Made by a program: the position numbers. Positions 45,201 through 51,200 of a DNA stretch of 64,000 nt are shown one piece after another. Every line of letters begins with the position of its first letter. Positions within the stretch are counted from its first letter, which is position 1. The DNA is from Nitrospiraceae bacterium (lineage in GTDB: Bacteria; Nitrospirota; Nitrospiria; Nitrospirales; UBA2166): assembly GCA_002726235.1 (NCBI GenBank), contig PBSN01000008.1, forward strand, positions 66,088 to 130,087. The letters run 5' to 3'.

Positions 45201-48200
45201 CGACGCTGCATCGGTTGGGGTCGTAAATTGGGTCAGCGAGAAGGTGGTCAAGATCCACGAACATTGTGGACATCATTACGAGATAGCTGATACGCCAGGT
45301 CGTTGTAAAAGCTAGTTTCGCGACAATTGCGGGAATGATGAAATGGAGGACAAGATGTGAAATCGCAATCTCTCACAGAGAGGTTCAACTGTTCATGTTT
45401 TTATCACAATAGTTCCTGCTAGCTTGTCGTGCCATCCTTGCTTTTGTTTATCGAACGCAACCCAGAGAAGGCCGAGCATCAACGGAATGGTTGAGAAAAA
45501 GTATGCAAAGTAGCGCCAGATCAGTTTTCCTGGTGTAGGGTTACCGCATGTTCTTGCGTCTACGATTTTGATACGTAGGATCATTTTTCCTGGAGTGGCA
45601 GCACGAAATACCCAAAAGACAATGACCACGACAGCTGGCATGACCCATGTAATCAGGAACGTTGATAGGCCTCCGGCTGTTTTCCCGGAAAGAATTAAGT
45701 CCATACTATCTGTTCCAATCAGCAACGGGGTGATGAGGAACAGTAATAGTATGGAATCAATGGTGGATGCAGCTACACGGATCAAAAACCCTGCGTACAT
45801 TGGTTTCGAAGCGTTTTCGCCAGAGGCTCCATGTTGTGGAGGCTGACCTGATTGCTGGTCCATTCGGTTTTCCCTGTGTCTTGCCTGAGTTATATGTTAT
45901 CTGCTTGCAAGGCATCAAGGCGTAGCTCAAAAATCGTACATGGCATAGTGATCTGCCAATTATCAAGTACTTGTGGATGGAGTTCGCCGAGGAGGCCACA
46001 TGGCTCCTGATTCAGTGTGAGTTGTCCGACACGGCCATCAATGAAAGATGGATGTGTTGTTGGTTTGACTTTGTATGATAAGCCGAGGGTGTAAAACAGT
46101 AGGTCAACGTAGGAGTGTATTTCCGAAAAGTTGGCATTTGGGTGGGCTAAGAGTGCGCCGATGGCGTTGAGTGTTCGAGTGCCGGATTCGGTGTTCGGGT
46201 CTGGTTGTACGATCTCGCCTGCTTCGAAGAGGCAATGAGGATAGAAACTATGAGAAGACGCGGCTTCTACACGAAGTAACGAAGGAATTATCCATTGCCG
46301 GACACAGCTATAGGTGAGGGACATCACGTTGTCAACCTCGATGATGTCTGTGGTCGGGAGGTTCATCCGAATCGCCAAGTCTTCCTGTGAGGACAAGATG
46401 TTCGAAAGGATTTCTTGAAATCCAAACCCAATCATGAGTTCGCGGACTTTGTCCGAGATTATCTCAGATTGAGAAAGGCTTCCGACGGTGAACTCGGAAG
46501 GGAGGGCGGTTGAAAAGGCGTTATACCCAGTGCTGATGGCAATGTCCTCGATGGCATCGACGGGGTGCATGAGGTCATCACGGTAGGGAGGTTGTTTCAC
46601 GTAGAGAGTTTTTACGTGTGACTTGACCTGATATCCATATTCAATTAGCGCTTGTTTTCCTTCGTTCAAGGTTAGTGAGTTACCAAGGGTGGCATTGATG
46701 ATCTCCTGAGGCACTTCGATCTCTGACCCACAATCATACGGCACGTGAATTGATTTCCCGAATTCTGTCGGCGCAGGATAGAGTACCTCTATGGAATCAA
46801 TTTTCGCCTTACGATCGGCGAAATTAGCTGCGAGAATATTAATCGCATGCAGGACCATGCGTAGATCGGTTCCAGTCACCTCGACGAACAGGTTTTTATC
46901 GCCAACCTGCACTTCCCCAATTTCACGGCTATTGATGATTGGGGGGAAGGAAAGGATAGTCCCATTGGCATCGGTGAGCAATGGGCAGTGTTGTTTGCCG
47001 TCTTGACCGATCAGCGTGGATTTGTACTCAATCCCTTTGGGATGGCATTCTAGGATCTCCGTCAGCGTCATTGGCTCGTCAAATCCTAACGGAGTGAAAC
47101 GCACGGTGTCAGGGTCTGCGATGGTATACGTGACGGGGAACTGTATGGGATCAAGCCGATAAATGCCGATGGACACGCTCTTTCGTTTACGTCCGAAGAT
47201 ATCGGCCAGTTTTTCCTGTGTTTGGATCAGTTGTGCCAATCCTCGATCTGAGAGTGTGTAGCCTGTTGCCTTAAAACCGCCAATATACTGCCTGATTACA
47301 TGAAGACCGTGTCCGACCTTGATTTGATCGAGAGTCTTCTTCGCTGGTTTGAAAAACGAATAGGGGAGGAGCTTCTCATCCAGTTTTGTGCGAATTTGGC
47401 GTGCAATTCCCTCAGTACACCAGAGATCTGGACGATTGGTATCTTGAAGTTCGATCTTAAGCGTGTCCGTTGCAGGTTCATAGTCCTTGATTTCGCCCTT
47501 TGCCAGCAGTATCCATTTGTCTAATTCCTCAAGGGTGAACGTGTGCCCGATGAGTGTTTCGAGGTCTTGTTTTGGAAAATCAATCGTTGGCATGGGTGTT
47601 AAAATGGCATTGGTTGCTGACGGATGAGGTCGAGATTGGCAGTAAAGAGATCGCGAATATCATGAATTCCCAGTGCGATCATTGCCATGCGGTCCAGTCC
47701 TAGGCCCCATGCGATGACGGGGACTTTGATGCCTAGTGGATGCGTAACTTCTGGCCGTAGCAGTCCAGCCCCTCCAAGTTCCATCCAGCCTAATTTCGGA
47801 TGTTCGACATGCAGTTCAACTGAGGGTTCGGTAAATGGAAAGTATGCTGGTGCGAATTTCACCTTTGTGGTTTGCGCCATCTCCTTTGCAAAGAGTGATA
47901 AGAGTCCGAGGAGTGTCTGGAAGTTGATGGTGTTTCCAAGCACGATACCTTCTGTTTGGAAAAAGTCAGTAGCATGGGTGGCATCAATCTGGTCATAGCG
48001 AAAACAGCGTGCCATGGAAAAATATTTTCCGGGAATCTTCGGTTGTGACGCGAGAGTTCGCGATGATACTGCAGTTCCTTGGCTACGGAGGACCAGACGT
48101 CGAGTCTGTTGCTCATTGAAGGAGTAGCGCCAGCCTCGGGACCCTGTTGTCCAGCCATCACGATGGGTTTGGGAAACTCGGCTAACATAAGGTTCAGGGA

Positions 48201-51200
48201 TAGGTTCTGAATACGCAGGACTCTTCACGAAATACACATCATGGATATCGCGGGCGGGGTGAAATTGCGGCATGTAGAGCGTGTCCATATTCCAGAATTC
48301 ACTTTCGACGATCGGACCACGCATTTCCTCGAAACCCATGCTGACCAATGTTGTTTTGACTTTGTCCAAAAATGATCGGTAAGGATGCTTTTTTCCTGCA
48401 GTAATTCGTGGGGGACGTAGCGCGATGTTGTATGGGCGGGGGGCACGCGTTCGCCACGATCCGTCTTTCAATATTTCAGGCGTCAGTTGTGCGTAGCCCT
48501 CTTTGACTCCAGTGGTCATCACGTTTGTGGCAATTGCTTGCCCTGCGTCAGTGAGTGCAAAGGATCGCGTGATATGTTCATCAACCCGAAACGGTTCTTG
48601 TGAACGTCCTCGCCGTTGGGAAAAGGTATCGATGATCTTGCGTTCCGTATCAGGTCGCGTGTCGTAGCTTGCCGGACCGTGAGCGATATCTTCGATGAGC
48701 ATACGGAGCGTAGACGTTAGCTCACTCACTGGTGATGTTGGTTCGAGTACTCCTCCAGGACCTATCTGAAGGGACCCTTCTGTTTTTAGCGCTCCGATGG
48801 GACCACTCAGGTCGCTTGCCTGTAGGCCTAGCGTCTCCTGAAGGGTTTTCATGGTGAGAAGGCCGCCCTGTTGCTTAGCTTCCGTGGCTCCAGTGAAAAT
48901 TCGTTCTAAGAGGGATCCTTCTTCAGAAAACTTAGTGCCTACTGAGGTGAGGGAGACGACTTTTGTGAGAACCTCTGACGTGATCGTGATGTACTGCTTG
49001 GCTTGCATCCATCCGATGCTCATGCTGACTTGTGCAGGGTCGAGGCCAGTATGTGCTGCGAGGTCAGCTTCGCTGGTGGGGGATTGTTTATGCAAGTCGC
49101 TAAGGATGGCGACTTCGAGTGGATGAAGGCTTGAGAGTTGGTGCTCCTCTAGAGGAGACGATTCTTTTTGTGTCATGCTCGTTGGGTTTCCACTGGCATT
49201 GCCCCTATTCCAGCTCGGCGCATCTGCCGGATAACCATGTCGTATGGTGGTGTTTTGAAAATTGCAGATCCTGCAACAAGAATTGTTGCCCCGGCTTGAA
49301 CGACATCCGCAGCGTTGTCAGATGATATGCCTCCATCAACTTCGAGTTCTATCTGAAGGGCGTTGGCATCAATGAGGTCCTTGGCCTTTCGGATTTTTGA
49401 CATGACTGATGGAATAAAGGATTGACCACCAAACCCTGGATTGACGGACATAATGAGCAGGAGGTCGAGGTCTGCTAAAATCTCCTTGAGCGATTCAATG
49501 GCTGTTTCTGGATTCAGAGAAACTCCCGCTTTTGCGCCCAAGTCTTTGATGGCTTGAACGGTGAGATGGAGATGTGGACAGGTTTCGCAATGGACGGTCA
49601 GTATGTCCGCTCCCGCGTCACGAAATGCCCCGAGATAATCGTCTGGGTTGGTCACCATCAAATGGACATCGAGTGGAAGCTTTGTGCTACGACGAATGGC
49701 TTCGACAATTGGTGGGCCGACGGTGATGTTTGGTACAAAGTGGCCATCCATCACGTCGATGTGAATCCAATCTGCTCCACCGGCTTCGACTGCCGCCACT
49801 TCGTCTGCAAGCCGTCCAAAATCGGCAGCGAGAATTGATGGTGCAATTTTTAATGATGGCATCATGCGATGTTGGAACGGCGGAGTGCCTCGATTCGTTC
49901 CTCAATACGTGGATGGGTTGATATTAGGCTCATGAATCCGCCCGTTCTTCCCGAAATCTTCATCGTCGCCAGTGCGTCTTTCGTTCCGTAGTCAATTTGG
50001 GATTGTTGGACCCAGGTTCCAATCGCTTGTAATGCCGCGATCATGGAGTCTGGGCCATAGACTCGTGCAGCAAAGGCATCTGCGGCGAACTCACGCTTTC
50101 GTGAAAACCAGCAAATCGGGATCATTGCAAGAAATGACAATACAATCTGAAGAAAAATATACGTGGCGAAATACAACATCGGGTTACGGTTTGCAATATG
50201 ACGTGCGATGAACTGACTCAAGAAGTAGACAAAGGTGTTCATCAATCCGGCCAGAATAGTTGTGGTGAGCATGTCCCCGTTTCGGATATGTCCCATCTCA
50301 TGCGCAAGAACGGCTTGAAGCTCTCGCTCGTTAAGGTTCTGCAAGAGTCCGGTTGAAACGGCAACCATTGAGTTGTTTTTGCTCGGCCCCGTCGCAAACG
50401 CGTTCGGATCGGGGGCATCATAGATCCATACCTCTGGCATTGAGATTTCCATTCCACGGGAAATTTCTCGGATGGAATCGAATATCACGGATTCTATTGG
50501 GGATCCGGGGCGCTCAATTCGTTGGCCGGACACCATGGCTCGCGCCATTTGCTTTGAAAAGGCCAAGCTAATAAATGCGCCGCCAAATCCAATGACAAAC
50601 GACCATAGCAACATGGTTTGGTTGATTGATCCTCGAAGATCAACGCCAAACATTGGAAGAAGGATCTCAACCAAGACTGTAAAGGTGATCGATAACGTAA
50701 CAAAGATCAGGATATTTGCAAGAAGTAGCAGGAACATTCCTTTCATTCGACTCATCAAATCGTCTCCTCTTGGGTATTTGCTGCCAAGGGCAGAGGTGTG
50801 CTTGTCAAGGTTGATCCCGAATTAACTCTATGTCCGGATAGGTAAGCATGCGCAGTCATTCTGCGTCGTGAGGCTGGTTGAAGTTCACGAATTTCGATTG
50901 TGCCATACCCTGTTGCAACGGTGATACTGTTTCGTGTCGTGTCGAGGACAGTACCTGGAGATTGTGATGACGGCGAATAATTTACTGATTTGACGTCCCA
51001 CAGTCGCCACTTTTCAGTTCCATAATAGGTGTGTGCTCCAGGCCAAGGATCCATCCCACGCACGAGATTTGCAATCCGTGATGCGTTATTGCTCCATTGG
51101 ATCATCCCATCTTGCTTTTTCAGGATTGGCGCAAGTGACGCGTGGTCTGAATTTTGTGGTTGGGGAGTGATCGTATCGGTCTCAAGTGCCTCAAGGGTTT

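What a model noticed while it worked through the whole genome (the two positions that open the first line are those of the whole stretch)
45890..49176. Archaeal (spirochaete-type) phenylalanyl-tRNA synthetase instead of the bacterial enzyme
The only PheRS of this genome, pheT g00690 (567 aa) and pheS g00691 (525 aa), is of the archaeal size and sequence type (long alpha, short beta), not the bacterial 340/800-aa type. Its best characterised relatives are the archaea-derived PheRS of Borrelia/Treponema and PheRS of Thermococcales. The same type is found throughout Nitrospirales, Leptospirillum, Troglogloeales and other Nitrospirota lineages, where it forms one clade, so the trait that was published as a unique mark of Spirochaetaceae is also an old, vertically kept acquisition of a large part of the phylum Nitrospirota.
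Evidence so far: swissprot.tsv: g00691 42.5% to Treponema pallidum PheS, 39-40% to Thermococcus/Pyrococcus PheS over ~505 aa; g00690 39% to Borrelia PheT over 566 aa; the other 21 aaRS genes listed have bacterial best hits. search_genomes: full-length matches (44-60% id, E 1e-127 or lower; one partial at 3e-86) in 67 of 100 sampled Nitrospirota: 21/21 Nitrospirales and families f5-f7,f10,f11,f14,f15; none in f8,f9,f12,f13,f16-f22. 79 related loci: Nitrospira moscoviensis, Leptospirillum, Troglogloeales, also Phycisphaerales, some Myxococcota/'Deltaproteobacteria', KSB1-like, Stahlbacteria, and Woese-/Nanoarchaeota and Methanosarcinales at 39-44%. ML tree of 75 PheS: bacteria vs archaea split 100, Nitrospirot [...]
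(Added by a program. Inside this text positions count along the whole contig: contig position 66,088 is position 1 of the stretch shown here. "Call 12" and the like, gene names such as g00115 and contig names such as C1 are that model's own, and its searches are not shown. The text may have been shortened before it was handed on; [...] marks where a part breaks off. The agent that wrote the report below was given it as the finding of a first reader that could run no searches.)

Follow-up and report, generated by a model that had tools for sequence, protein, structure and literature searches.

The report
Archaeal-type phenylalanyl-tRNA synthetase in Nitrospirota
This Nitrospirales bacterium charges its phenylalanine tRNA with an archaeal-type enzyme instead of the bacterial one, a swap once thought special to some spirochaetes but in fact shared by many bacterial groups.

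Summary
pheS (47599-49176, -) and pheT (45890-47593, -) pass the archaeal-type equivalog models, and pheT fails the bacterial one. The 90.65%-complete genome holds no other PheRS.

Across 401 Nitrospirota genomes, 243 carry the archaeal-type alpha and 145 the bacterial-type beta. No listed genome has both.

In a site-heterogeneous tree, Nitrospirota form one clade (96/89). All named bacteria, spirochaetes included, form one clade (100/98) whose sister is DPANN archaea. Keeping spirochaetes out of it is rejected (AU p=0.004).

The gene pair is therefore not a spirochaete mark. It is one bacterial lineage of DPANN-like origin, found under labels of about ten phyla.

In Nitrospirota it lies beside the rplT cluster, where bacterial pheST normally sits (28 of 48 assessable loci convergent, one co-directional). 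This suggests displacement in place.

Inheritance looks vertical at family and order level. An RpoB tree, however, needs two changes, because family f20 sits with the bacterial-type families.

tRNA-Phe keeps the bacterial U20.

Verdict: a new member of a known kind, of moderate interest.

The parts
47599..49176 (-). pheS, archaeal/eukaryotic-type PheRS alpha subunit, 525 aa
   Evidence: ORF. NF003210 549.6 bits (cut-off 350) and TIGR00468 348.8 bits. Best solved relatives are 8s8b_A and 3l4g_A.
47617..48432 (-). class II catalytic core of PheS (aa 249-520)
   Evidence: Pfam PF01409 tRNA-synt_2d, E 9.3e-85, profile positions 2-245 of 246.
48487..49176 (-). N-terminal extension of PheS (aa 1-230), the place of the winged-helix DNA-binding-fold domains of archaeal/eukaryotic alpha subunits
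   Evidence: Only weak winged-helix hits at aa 19-66, all below the Pfam cut-offs (MarR_2 1.2e-4, DUF2582 2.7e-3). NF003210 aligns from aa 16. No bacterial Phe_tRNA-synt_N domain. The role of the extension is taken from PMC3275996 (passages).
45890..47593 (-). pheT, archaeal-type PheRS beta subunit, 567 aa
   Evidence: ORF. TIGR00471 pheT_arch 464.1 bits (cut-off 282.65) and pheT_bact 115.2 bits (cut-off 402.65). Best solved relatives are 2cxi_A (1.8e-66) and 3l4g_B (1.7e-59).
46739..47311 (-). B3/4 editing region of PheT (about aa 95-285), with Asn221 (codon 46931-46933) at the place of P. horikoshii Asn217
   Evidence: Residue-by-residue alignment to 2cxi_A: L206, S215, N221, E238 and T240 align with L202, S211, N217, D234 and T236. 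The role of Asn217 is from PMC3275996 (passage). The other four residues come from memory of Sasaki et al. 2006, which I did not see.
45917..46720 (-). B5 domain (aa 292-357) and catalytic-like module B6/7 (aa 365-559) of PheT
   Evidence: Pfam PF03484 3.2e-12 and PF17759 2.1e-32.
49173..49865 (-). rpe (ribulose-phosphate 3-epimerase). Its stop overlaps the pheS start. It is the conserved upstream neighbour in Nitrospirota.
   Evidence: Pfam PF00834 3.8e-83. rpe lies directly upstream on the same strand in 37 of 63 assessable Nitrospirota loci and in 0 of 12 loci of other bacterial phyla.
49862..51732 (-). htpX-like M48 peptidase (49862-50758) and fmt (50755-51732), further upstream in the same overlapping gene string
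   Evidence: Pfam PF01435, PF00551 and PF02911. The same order is seen in L004 and L006, and in L015, L021 and L046.
45393..45863 (-). RDD-family membrane protein just downstream of pheT. In this lineage it takes the place that rplT holds in many relatives.
   Evidence: Pfam PF06271 9.9e-20. RDD is downstream only in the window, L004 and L007. The genome's own rplT lies about 200 kb away on the same contig.

Best explanation
pheS and pheT encode the cell's only phenylalanyl-tRNA synthetase, an (alpha-beta)2 enzyme of the archaeal/eukaryotic type.

How it works (inferred from homology). The alpha subunit activates Phe and loads tRNA-Phe with its class II core. Its long N-terminal winged-helix part takes over the tRNA and anticodon binding that domain B8 of the bacterial beta subunit performs. 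The beta subunit has B1, B3/4, B5 and B6/7 but lacks B2 and B8; it holds the tetramer together and clears Tyr-tRNA-Phe at the B3/4 site.

Where it came from. The gene pair belongs to a single bacterial lineage of archaeal-type PheRS whose nearest archaeal relatives are DPANN archaea. That lineage also includes the spirochaete enzyme and those of Planctomycetota, Myxococcota, Moduliflexota, Eremiobacterota and Stahlbacteria. The most likely history is one transfer from archaea to bacteria, followed by spread between bacterial phyla.

What happened in Nitrospirota. The pair replaced the native bacterial pheST at or beside its old place after infC-rpmI-rplT, in an ancestor of Nitrospiria, Leptospirillia and allied classes, and was then mostly inherited vertically. 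A second event (transfer within the phylum, or sorting of two copies) is needed for family f20, and probably f43. The host tRNA-Phe stayed bacterial (U20), so the enzyme adapted to the tRNA and not the reverse.
For: Identity and sole copy.

Distribution: 243 of 401 Nitrospirota genomes are over the NF003210 cut-off and 145 of 401 over the pheT_bact cut-off. By reading the rows, no genome is over both. The other 13 have partial matches or none.

Careful tree (68 PheS x 521 columns, LG+C20+F+G4 PMSF): 17 named Nitrospirota form one clade at 96/89. Three named spirochaetes form one clade at 100/100. All named bacteria fall in a 41-row clade at 100/98. That clade joins a Woese-/Nanoarchaeota clade at 100/94. 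The FastTree of 322 rows gives the same picture.

AU test: a tree that keeps the spirochaete group out of [other bacteria + DPANN sister] is 90.3 lnL worse, p-AU 0.0043.

Both subunits tell the same story: the window's order is one clade (alpha 97, beta 99) and families f2, f3, f16, f20 and f23 each get 100.

Synteny: rplT is convergent just after pheT in 28 of 48 assessable Nitrospirota loci, including Nitrospira, Troglogloeales and Leptospirillum. In L108 (f43) the order is infC-rplT-pheS-pheT on one strand. None of 12 assessable loci of other phyla has rplT nearby. Bacterial-type relatives keep thrS-infC-rpmI-rplT-pheS-pheT (L116) or rplT-pheS-pheT (L115).

tRNA-Phe of five archaeal-type hosts has U20 (four) or C20 (one), never G20, together with A73, G34-A36, U45 and U59. 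The identity sets are from PMC9976931, Table 1.

The editing-site Asn is conserved (PMC3275996).
Against: No biochemistry was done; every function is inferred from homology.

The genome is 90.65% complete, so a second PheRS in the missing part is not excluded.

Spirochaetes are represented by a Treponema MAG, Brucepastera and a partial Spirochaetia sequence. No Borrelia or T. pallidum sequence was included.

No row could be labelled Thermococcales, so the published spirochaete-Thermococcales link was not tested directly.

If some are archaeal, several separate transfers from close donors become possible.

No spirochaete beta subunit was obtained, so the shared clade rests on alpha alone.

Leptospirillum has a very long stem. 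It left the Nitrospirota clade in the quick 110-row tree and is unresolved.

The window's class is not recovered as one clade (5 changes for alpha, 4 for beta).

The species tree is a single gene (RpoB), LG+G4 and unrooted.

The constrained search behind the AU test had not finished.

In the window itself rplT is about 200 kb away.

Only 5 plus 2 tRNA-Phe genes were read.
Confidence: 0.6

Rival explanations
1. First reader's reading. One old transfer from archaea into an ancestor of a large part of Nitrospirota, kept strictly vertically, and independent of (or of unknown relation to) the spirochaete transfer from Thermococcales-like archaea.
For: Nitrospirota form one clade. Every sampled genome of the carrying families has the gene, apart from some incomplete ones. 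Families and the window's order are recovered by both subunits. The rpe-pheS-pheT and rplT context is shared. Andam & Gogarten placed spirochaetes near Thermococcales (PMC3191353).
Against: Spirochaetes and Nitrospirota share a bacterial clade at 100/98, and exclusion of the spirochaetes is rejected. The nearest neighbours of the Nitrospirota genes are other bacteria, not archaea. The RpoB tree needs two changes, and none of 200 bootstrap trees allows one.
Confidence: 0.2
2. Several separate archaea-to-bacteria transfers, one per phylum, from closely related and mostly unsampled DPANN-like donors. On this reading the 'bacterial clade' is an artefact of missing archaeal sequences.
For: No gene neighbourhood is shared between phyla: 0 of 12 other-phylum loci have rpe or rplT nearby. 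The unnamed rows at the base of and inside the clade could be archaeal. DPANN cells live attached to other cells (general knowledge).
Against: All 28 named rows inside the 41-row clade are bacterial. All named archaea lie outside it, and the branch has 100/98 support. The library searched held 1.84 billion representatives, so archaeal members of the clade, if common, should have turned up.
Confidence: 0.15
3. Artefact: an archaeal contig or chimeric assembly wrongly binned into a bacterial genome.
For: Some MAG labels in the data set are plainly wrong. 'Methanosarcinales' contigs carry Woesearchaeota-like genes, and a 'Hodarchaeota' PheT is 56% identical to that of Moduliflexus.
Against: The genes lie inside a contig of more than 600 kb (tRNA coordinates). 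They sit in an overlapping string with bacterial fmt, htpX and rpe, and G+C is even across the window. The same pair is in the complete chromosome of Nitrospira moscoviensis (L033) and in single-contig genomes. No bacterial-type PheRS is present.
Confidence: 0.01
4. Ancient coexistence. The ancestor of Nitrospirota, or of a wider bacterial group, carried both PheRS types, and lineages later kept one or the other (sorting rather than repeated transfer).
For: This would account for f20 sitting among bacterial-type families on the RpoB tree while its PheRS stays inside the Nitrospirota PheRS clade. The two types are strictly complementary today.
Against: Not one of 401 genomes has both types over cut-off. 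The f43 pair sits in the canonical operon place, which fits replacement better than long coexistence. The deep nodes are unresolved, so this cannot be told apart from an early transfer within the phylum.
Confidence: 0.1

Closest known systems
Archaeal-type PheRS of Spirochaetaceae (Spirochaeta, Treponema, Borrelia), described by Andam & Gogarten 2011 (PMC3191353, passages read) as a horizontally acquired shared derived character
   Same: Long alpha and short beta subunits of the same size class. Both subunits are of archaeal type. It is the sole PheRS and it replaced the bacterial enzyme. In my trees the alpha subunits of the two groups share one bacterial clade.
   Different: The host phylum differs. 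The spirochaete enzyme is not the closest relative: Nitrospirota lie nearer to Moduliflexota, Myxococcota, Planctomycetota and Eremiobacterota (83/90). With today's data the nearest archaea are DPANN, not the Thermococcales named in the paper. The trait is therefore not unique to Spirochaetaceae.
Archaeal and eukaryotic cytosolic PheRS (PheRS-A alpha and beta in AARS Online, PMC11580382; solved structures 3l4g human and 2cxi P. horikoshii)
   Same: Family models are passed. The domain set is the same: alpha with an N-terminal extension plus the class II core; beta with B1, B3/4, B5 and B6/7 and without B2 and B8. The editing-site Asn is conserved (PMC3275996).
   Different: It works in a bacterium on a bacterial-style tRNA-Phe with U20, whereas archaeal and eukaryotic identity uses G20. 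It is embedded in a bacterial operon (fmt-htpX-rpe-pheS-pheT). Identity to DPANN PheS is only 40-44%.
Bacterial PheRS (pheS about 340 aa, pheT about 800 aa; TIGR00472) in the thrS-infC-rpmI-rplT-pheS-pheT operon
   Same: It has the same cellular job and the same heterotetramer core. In many Nitrospirota the archaeal-type pair lies beside rplT, the old operon neighbour.
   Different: It fails the pheT_bact model (115 bits against a 402.65 cut-off). It has no B2, no B8 and no alpha coiled-coil domain (contrast). The bacterial type is still present in 145 of 401 Nitrospirota genomes.
Gene displacement in situ by a foreign copy inside a conserved operon
   Same: A foreign gene pair of the same function sits at or beside the place of the native one: L108 (f43) has infC-rplT-pheS-pheT on one strand, and 28 of 48 assessable loci have rplT tail-to-tail with pheT.
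   Different: In most lineages the pair is inverted relative to rplT and joined to rpe. In the window's own lineage the link to rplT is lost. The displacement step itself is inferred, not observed.

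Membership tests
Archaeal/eukaryotic-type PheRS alpha (NCBIfam NF003210 / PRK04172) | Whole-protein score above the curated equivalog cut-off | tested here: met
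   549.6 bits against a cut-off of 350, aligned over aa 16-522.
Archaeal/eukaryotic-type PheRS alpha (NCBIfam NF003210 / PRK04172) | Class II (F) catalytic core at the C-terminus | tested here: met
   PF01409, E 9.3e-85, aa 249-520.
Archaeal/eukaryotic-type PheRS alpha (NCBIfam NF003210 / PRK04172) | N-terminal extension of about 200 aa made of DNA-binding-fold (winged-helix) domains, in place of the bacterial coiled-coil domain | tested here: inconclusive
   A 230-aa extension is present and the bacterial PF02912 domain is absent. The winged-helix hits at aa 19-66 are all below their cut-offs, and no PheRS_DBD model matched. No structure was predicted.
Archaeal-type PheRS beta (NCBIfam TIGR00471 pheT_arch) | Score above the pheT_arch cut-off and below the pheT_bact cut-off | tested here: met
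   464.1 bits (cut-off 282.65) against 115.2 bits (cut-off 402.65).
Archaeal-type PheRS beta (NCBIfam TIGR00471 pheT_arch) | Lacks the B2 (tRNA_bind/EMAP-like) and B8 (FDX-ACB anticodon-binding) domains of the bacterial beta subunit | tested here: met
   Neither domain is found in the 567-aa protein. Both kinds of domain are found in bacterial-type PheT of Nitrospirota relatives.
Archaeal-type PheRS beta (NCBIfam TIGR00471 pheT_arch) | B3/4 editing site with the conserved Asn (P. horikoshii Asn217 / human Asn238) | tested here: met
   Asn221 aligns with Asn217 of 2cxi_A in a PPIINS motif. Its role is from PMC3275996. Editing activity itself was not tested.
Archaeal-type PheRS (functional enzyme) | Forms an (alpha-beta)2 tetramer and charges tRNA-Phe with Phe | not testable with these tools
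   Inferred from its being the only PheRS genes found and from conservation in 243 of 401 genomes. No complex prediction was run, because a textbook pair would pass by likeness to solved structures.
Bacterial lineage of archaeal-type PheRS that includes the spirochaete enzyme | Alpha subunit groups with spirochaete and other bacterial sequences to the exclusion of all named archaea | tested here: met
   41-row clade at 100/98. AU p=0.0043 against excluding the spirochaete group. Tested for alpha only, and without Borrelia, T. pallidum or labelled Thermococcales.
Bacterial lineage of archaeal-type PheRS that includes the spirochaete enzyme | Beta subunit shows the same grouping | tested here: inconclusive
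   The PheT tree joins Nitrospirota with Moduliflexota, Myxococcota and Planctomycetota against DPANN. No spirochaete PheT was obtained: none was among the 120 best hits.
Displacement in situ at the infC-rpmI-rplT-pheST operon | The foreign pair lies next to rplT | tested here: not met
   In the window, RDD and a methyltransferase follow pheT, and rplT is about 200 kb away. The feature is met in relatives: 28 of 48 assessable loci convergent and 1 co-directional. The claim therefore concerns the ancestor, not this locus.

The most novel reading that the evidence does not exclude
Every archaeal-type PheRS now found in bacteria descends from one gene pair that crossed once from a DPANN-like archaeon. 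This covers spirochaetes, most Nitrospirota, and members of Planctomycetota, Myxococcota, Moduliflexota, Eremiobacterota and Stahlbacteria, and by MAG labels also Acidobacteriota and Thermodesulfobacteriota. The pair then moved from phylum to phylum, each time knocking out the native enzyme. In Nitrospirota it entered twice, landing in the old infC-rpmI-rplT-pheST operon, while the host tRNA-Phe kept its bacterial U20. An essential two-subunit translation enzyme thus behaves as a mobile, self-sufficient replacement cassette, and the enzyme, not the tRNA, did the adapting.
Probability: 0.45. Interest if true: 0.6.

Novelty: new member of a known kind. Interest (0 to 1): 0.5.

Why it matters
1. 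It corrects a textbook-style example. The archaeal PheRS was published as a unique shared derived character of Spirochaetaceae with a Thermococcales-like donor (PMC3191353). With present data it is one bacterial lineage found under labels of about ten phyla, and its nearest archaea are DPANN.

2. It affects marker-gene work. pheS is one of 24 'universal' markers in PMC3636077. From memory, not checked here, pheS and pheT_bact also belong to the GTDB bac120 set. In 243 of 401 Nitrospirota the alpha subunit is a foreign copy and the bacterial beta model finds nothing over its cut-off. This can bias concatenated trees and completeness estimates.

3. It gives a testable case of how an essential two-subunit enzyme is replaced. 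The pair sits at the old operon place, and the tRNA keeps U20 although archaeal and eukaryotic PheRS use G20.

4. Nitrite oxidisers and comammox Nitrospira, which matter in the nitrogen cycle and in water treatment, would have a PheRS unlike that of most bacteria. This may matter for the action of PheRS-directed compounds (inference).

Tried and rejected

**Looking for spirochaete sequences**
- The one genome-contig scan gave none.
- The first protein search listed only Nitrospira-like hits.
- The ESM Atlas gave taxa but no ids.
- Three cluster look-ups named few rows: Woese-/Nano-/Aenigmarchaeota, Methanosuratincola and Diapherotrites. None was Thermococcales.
- Searching with the orphan representative P0136 finally gave named spirochaetes.
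- The same trick for the beta subunit, using Moduliflexus PheT, gave no spirochaete among 120 hits.

**Trees that did not finish or went wrong**
- The careful 110-row tree never finished: searches were unfinished, one search was killed, and one search returned no answer. I used the quick tree of that set and a careful 68-row tree instead.
- treekit's own AU test of Nitrospirota monophyly did not finish in two runs and was dropped.
- The AU test on spirochaete exclusion used direct IQ-TREE under LG+F+G4. Its constrained search was cut short.
- The first RpoB tree included three wrong ORFs (the neighbouring long gene) and is void. One search replaces it.

**tRNA-Phe**
- The window's genome has none assembled, and none lay in the fetched pheST loci.
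- A strict pattern found it in only two bacterial-type genomes. A DNA search seeded with one of those found it in five archaeal-type genomes.
- The idea that tRNA-Phe had switched to the archaeal G20 was rejected.

**Other points**
- No genome was found with both PheRS types.
- A literature search for displacement in situ together with pheS found nothing useful.
- No complex or structure prediction and no read mapping was run, because none would have changed the verdict.

Full report
**What is there.** Two adjacent minus-strand ORFs sit exactly where the finding says: pheS 47599..49176 (525 aa) and pheT 45890..47593 (567 aa). The pheS start overlaps the stop of rpe by 4 nt. htpX and fmt lie further upstream in one overlapping string, and an RDD-family gene follows pheT. 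G+C over the two genes (0.49-0.51) is like the rest of the window.

PheS scores 549.6 bits on NF003210, the archaeal-type alpha equivalog (cut-off 350). PheT scores 464.1 bits on TIGR00471 pheT_arch (cut-off 282.65) and 115.2 bits on TIGR00472 pheT_bact (cut-off 402.65). Pfam finds the class II (F) core in PheS, and B5 and the catalytic-like module in PheT (a B1 match falls below its cut-off). It finds no tRNA_bind (B2), no FDX-ACB (B8) and no bacterial alpha N-terminal domain. The best solved relatives are human cytosolic PheRS and the P. horikoshii beta fragment 2cxi.

The whole genome (1.87 Mb, 27 contigs, 90.65% complete) has no match to pheT_bact over the cut-off, and only this one pheS.

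**How it should work (inferred from homology).** According to passages of PMC3275996, archaeal/eukaryotic PheRS differs from the bacterial enzyme in three ways. Its alpha subunit has an N-terminal extension of three DNA-binding-fold domains. Its beta subunit lacks the anticodon-binding domain B8. It edits at the B3/B4 interface, where Asn217 (P. horikoshii) or Asn238 (human) stands in for the bacterial His261.

Here the 230-aa extension of PheS gives only weak winged-helix hits, all below their cut-offs. Asn221 of PheT aligns with Asn217 in a conserved PPIINS motif. Four further residues that I recall from Sasaki et al. 2006 (paper not seen) align as L206, S215, E238 and T240.

**Distribution in the phylum.** Of 401 Nitrospirota genomes (G000 included), 243 pass the NF003210 cut-off and 145 pass the pheT_bact cut-off. 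Reading the rows, the archaeal type is present in:
- all sampled genomes of the window's order (f1-f4) and class (f5-f15);
- families f16, f19, f20, f23, f24 and f43.

The bacterial type is in f17, f18, f21, f22, f25-f42, f44 and f45. No listed genome is over both cut-offs. The remaining 13 genomes have partial matches or none, and most are incomplete.

**Getting spirochaete sequences.** A HMMER search of 1.84 billion representatives gave 150 best PheS relatives. One orphan representative, P0136, when used as a query, returned hits at 42-45% identity. They included a Treponema MAG, Brucepastera parasyntrophica (Treponemataceae) and a partial Spirochaetia sequence. Named Nitrospirota, Leptospirillia, Planctomycetota, Stahlbacteria and Eremiobacterota sequences came with them.

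**Alpha-subunit trees.** A FastTree of 322 rows puts a spirochaete clade (3 named and 33 unnamed rows, support 100) inside a bacterial clade of 171 rows (support 98), with DPANN as sister.

The careful tree (68 rows x 521 columns, LG+C20+F+G4 by PMSF; ultrafast bootstrap / SH-aLRT) gives:
- 17 named Nitrospirota in one clade at 96/89, and in 98% of 200 bootstrap trees;
- 3 named spirochaetes in one clade at 100/100;
- all named bacteria in a 41-row clade at 100/98 (Nitrospirota 17, Spirochaetota 3, Planctomycetota 3, Stahlbacteria 2, and Eremiobacterota, Myxococcota and Moduliflexota 1 each);
- the unnamed P0136/P0316 joining at 95/95, and P0134 and P0144 at 99/97;
- a Woese-/Nanoarchaeota clade as sister, joined at 100/94.

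Inside the bacterial clade, Nitrospirota lie with Moduliflexota, Myxococcota, Planctomycetota and Eremiobacterota (83/90). Spirochaetes lie with unnamed rows (86/74).

An AU test under LG+F+G4 rejects a tree in which the spirochaete group (11 rows) is kept out of [other bacteria + DPANN sister]: delta lnL 90.3, p-AU 0.0043. The constrained search had not finished.

Results against this picture:
- In the quick 110-row tree, the long-stemmed Leptospirillum group moved next to Planctomycetota and Myxococcota (87, drawn open), so Nitrospirota needed two changes.
- I could label no row as Thermococcales.

**Beta subunit and vertical descent.** I fetched PheS and PheT from 30 unnamed Nitrospirota genomes of known family code. 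Quick PMSF trees recover the following:

| Grouping | Alpha | Beta |
|---|---|---|
| The window's order as one clade | 97 | 99 |
| Families f2, f3, f16, f20, f23, each | 100 | 100 |
| f20 joined with f43 | yes | yes |
| All Nitrospirota except Leptospirillum | 87 | 93 |
| Changes needed for the window's class | 5 | 4 |

Leptospirillum (stem length 1.06 for alpha and 1.44 for beta) sits in a polytomy. For the window's class, starred branches force only one change, so the deep nodes are unresolved rather than in conflict.

A protein search from Moduliflexus PheT returned named Nitrospirota, Leptospirillia, Thermodesulfobacteriota and Acidobacteriota hits, but no spirochaete among its 120 best. 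The shared bacterial clade therefore rests on alpha alone.

**Species tree check.** A careful LG+G4 tree of RpoB from 30 Nitrospirota genomes (one search is void because of three wrong ORFs) has a 13-row clade at 100/99. It holds all 10 bacterial-type rows (f17, f18, f21, f22, f25, f26) together with the 3 rows of archaeal-type f20. The trait needs two changes, and none of 200 bootstrap trees allows one, although starred branches alone force only one. This is one gene and the tree is unrooted. It argues for a second event in f20, and probably in its PheRS sister f43.

**Gene neighbourhood.** I ran tblastn with the window's Rpe and other neighbour proteins over 110 loci (Pfam checks). A few of the 66 Nitrospirota loci are duplicates of one genome.

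| Feature | Nitrospirota (66 loci) | Other bacterial phyla (14 loci) | Archaea (30 loci) |
|---|---|---|---|
| rpe directly upstream, same strand | 37 of 63 assessable | 0 of 12 | none |
| rplT convergent just after pheT | 28 of 48 assessable | 0 of 12 | none |

The loci with convergent rplT include Nitrospira, Troglogloeales, other Nitrospiria and Leptospirillum. In L108 (f43) the order is infC-rplT-pheS-pheT on one strand. DPANN loci have a TrmB-family gene upstream instead.

Bacterial-type Nitrospirota keep thrS-infC-rpmI-rplT-pheS-pheT (L116, f25) or rplT-pheS-pheT (L115, f30). A third (L114, f17) does not.

The simplest reading is that the foreign pair took the place of the native pheST beside rplT and was later inverted in most lineages. 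In the window's own lineage the link is lost: rplT lies about 200 kb away.

**tRNA-Phe.** None is assembled in the window's genome. I read the gene in five archaeal-type hosts (f2, f3, f20, f23, f24). All have A73, G34-A35-A36, C13-G22, G44, U45, U59 and U60. Position 20 is U in four and C in one. Two bacterial-type hosts also have U20.

Table 1 of PMC9976931 lists U20, U45 and U59 for Bacteria, and G20 for Archaea and Eukarya. The tRNA therefore did not change towards the archaeal identity set. The sample is small.

**Literature.** I read passages of Andam & Gogarten 2011 (PMC3191353). They state that the archaeal PheRS unites Spirochaetaceae, that it came from near Thermococcales, and that the beta subunit is weakly linked to Nanoarchaeum.

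I found no statement that Nitrospirota carry this type. In the passages read:
- PMC5388404 and PMC11580382 have no occurrence of Nitrospir* or spirochaet*.
- PMC8762117, PMC3636077 and PMC4918981 mention Nitrospir* only in other contexts.

Subscription journals and supplements were not searched, so prior mention cannot be excluded.

**Verdict.** The feature is real and well supported. It is a new member of a known kind: an archaeal-type PheRS that replaced the bacterial enzyme. Three things are added here:
- One bacterial lineage, spirochaetes included, sits next to DPANN archaea.
- There are signs of replacement at the old operon place.
- There was probably a second entry within the phylum.

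Interest is moderate: 0.5.

Noticed in passing
window 42850-44112 (+): A 420-aa protein that fuses a response-regulator receiver domain (aa 5-115, PF00072, 2e-31) to a full LpxC deacetylase (aa 149-414, PF03331, 1.6e-82). This suggests that the first committed step of lipid A synthesis is under phosphorelay control.
   Followed up: partly
L115:1002-3077 (-), L116:790-2952 (-), and many rows: The bacterial-type PheT of several Nitrospirota families (for example f25 and f30) is only 690-720 aa. It starts at about model position 156 and has no tRNA_bind (B2) domain, whereas the f17 protein (L114, 802 aa) has one.
   Followed up: partly
G019:C1:856953-862058, G010:C13, G028:C1: RpoB of the Leptospirillum-like family f24 lies in open frames of 1724-1730 aa and matches the model in two pieces. 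That implies an insertion of several hundred residues after about model position 220.
   Followed up: no
L057, L061, L064, L065, L074, L075: Contigs of MAGs labelled Methanosarcinales carry pheST that nests among Woesearchaeota. L074 and L076 are nearly identical (end branches 0.04 and 0.05). These contigs are probably misbinned DPANN DNA.
   Followed up: no
P0465: A PheT labelled 'Candidatus Hodarchaeota archaeon', from a 7-kb contig, is 56% identical to Moduliflexus PheT and ranks among bacterial sequences. The label is probably a binning error.
   Followed up: no
G000, whole genome: Only 36 tRNA genes are assembled. Those for Phe, Asp, Glu, His and Ile are among the missing ones, so the partner tRNA of this PheRS could not be read in its own genome.
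   Followed up: yes
L121-L125 versus L118 and L119: tRNA-Phe of all five archaeal-type hosts has A52-U62 in the T stem, while the two bacterial-type hosts have G52-C62. Four of the five archaeal-type hosts share the same acceptor stem. Whether this reflects shared descent or adaptation to the enzyme is unexplained.
   Followed up: no
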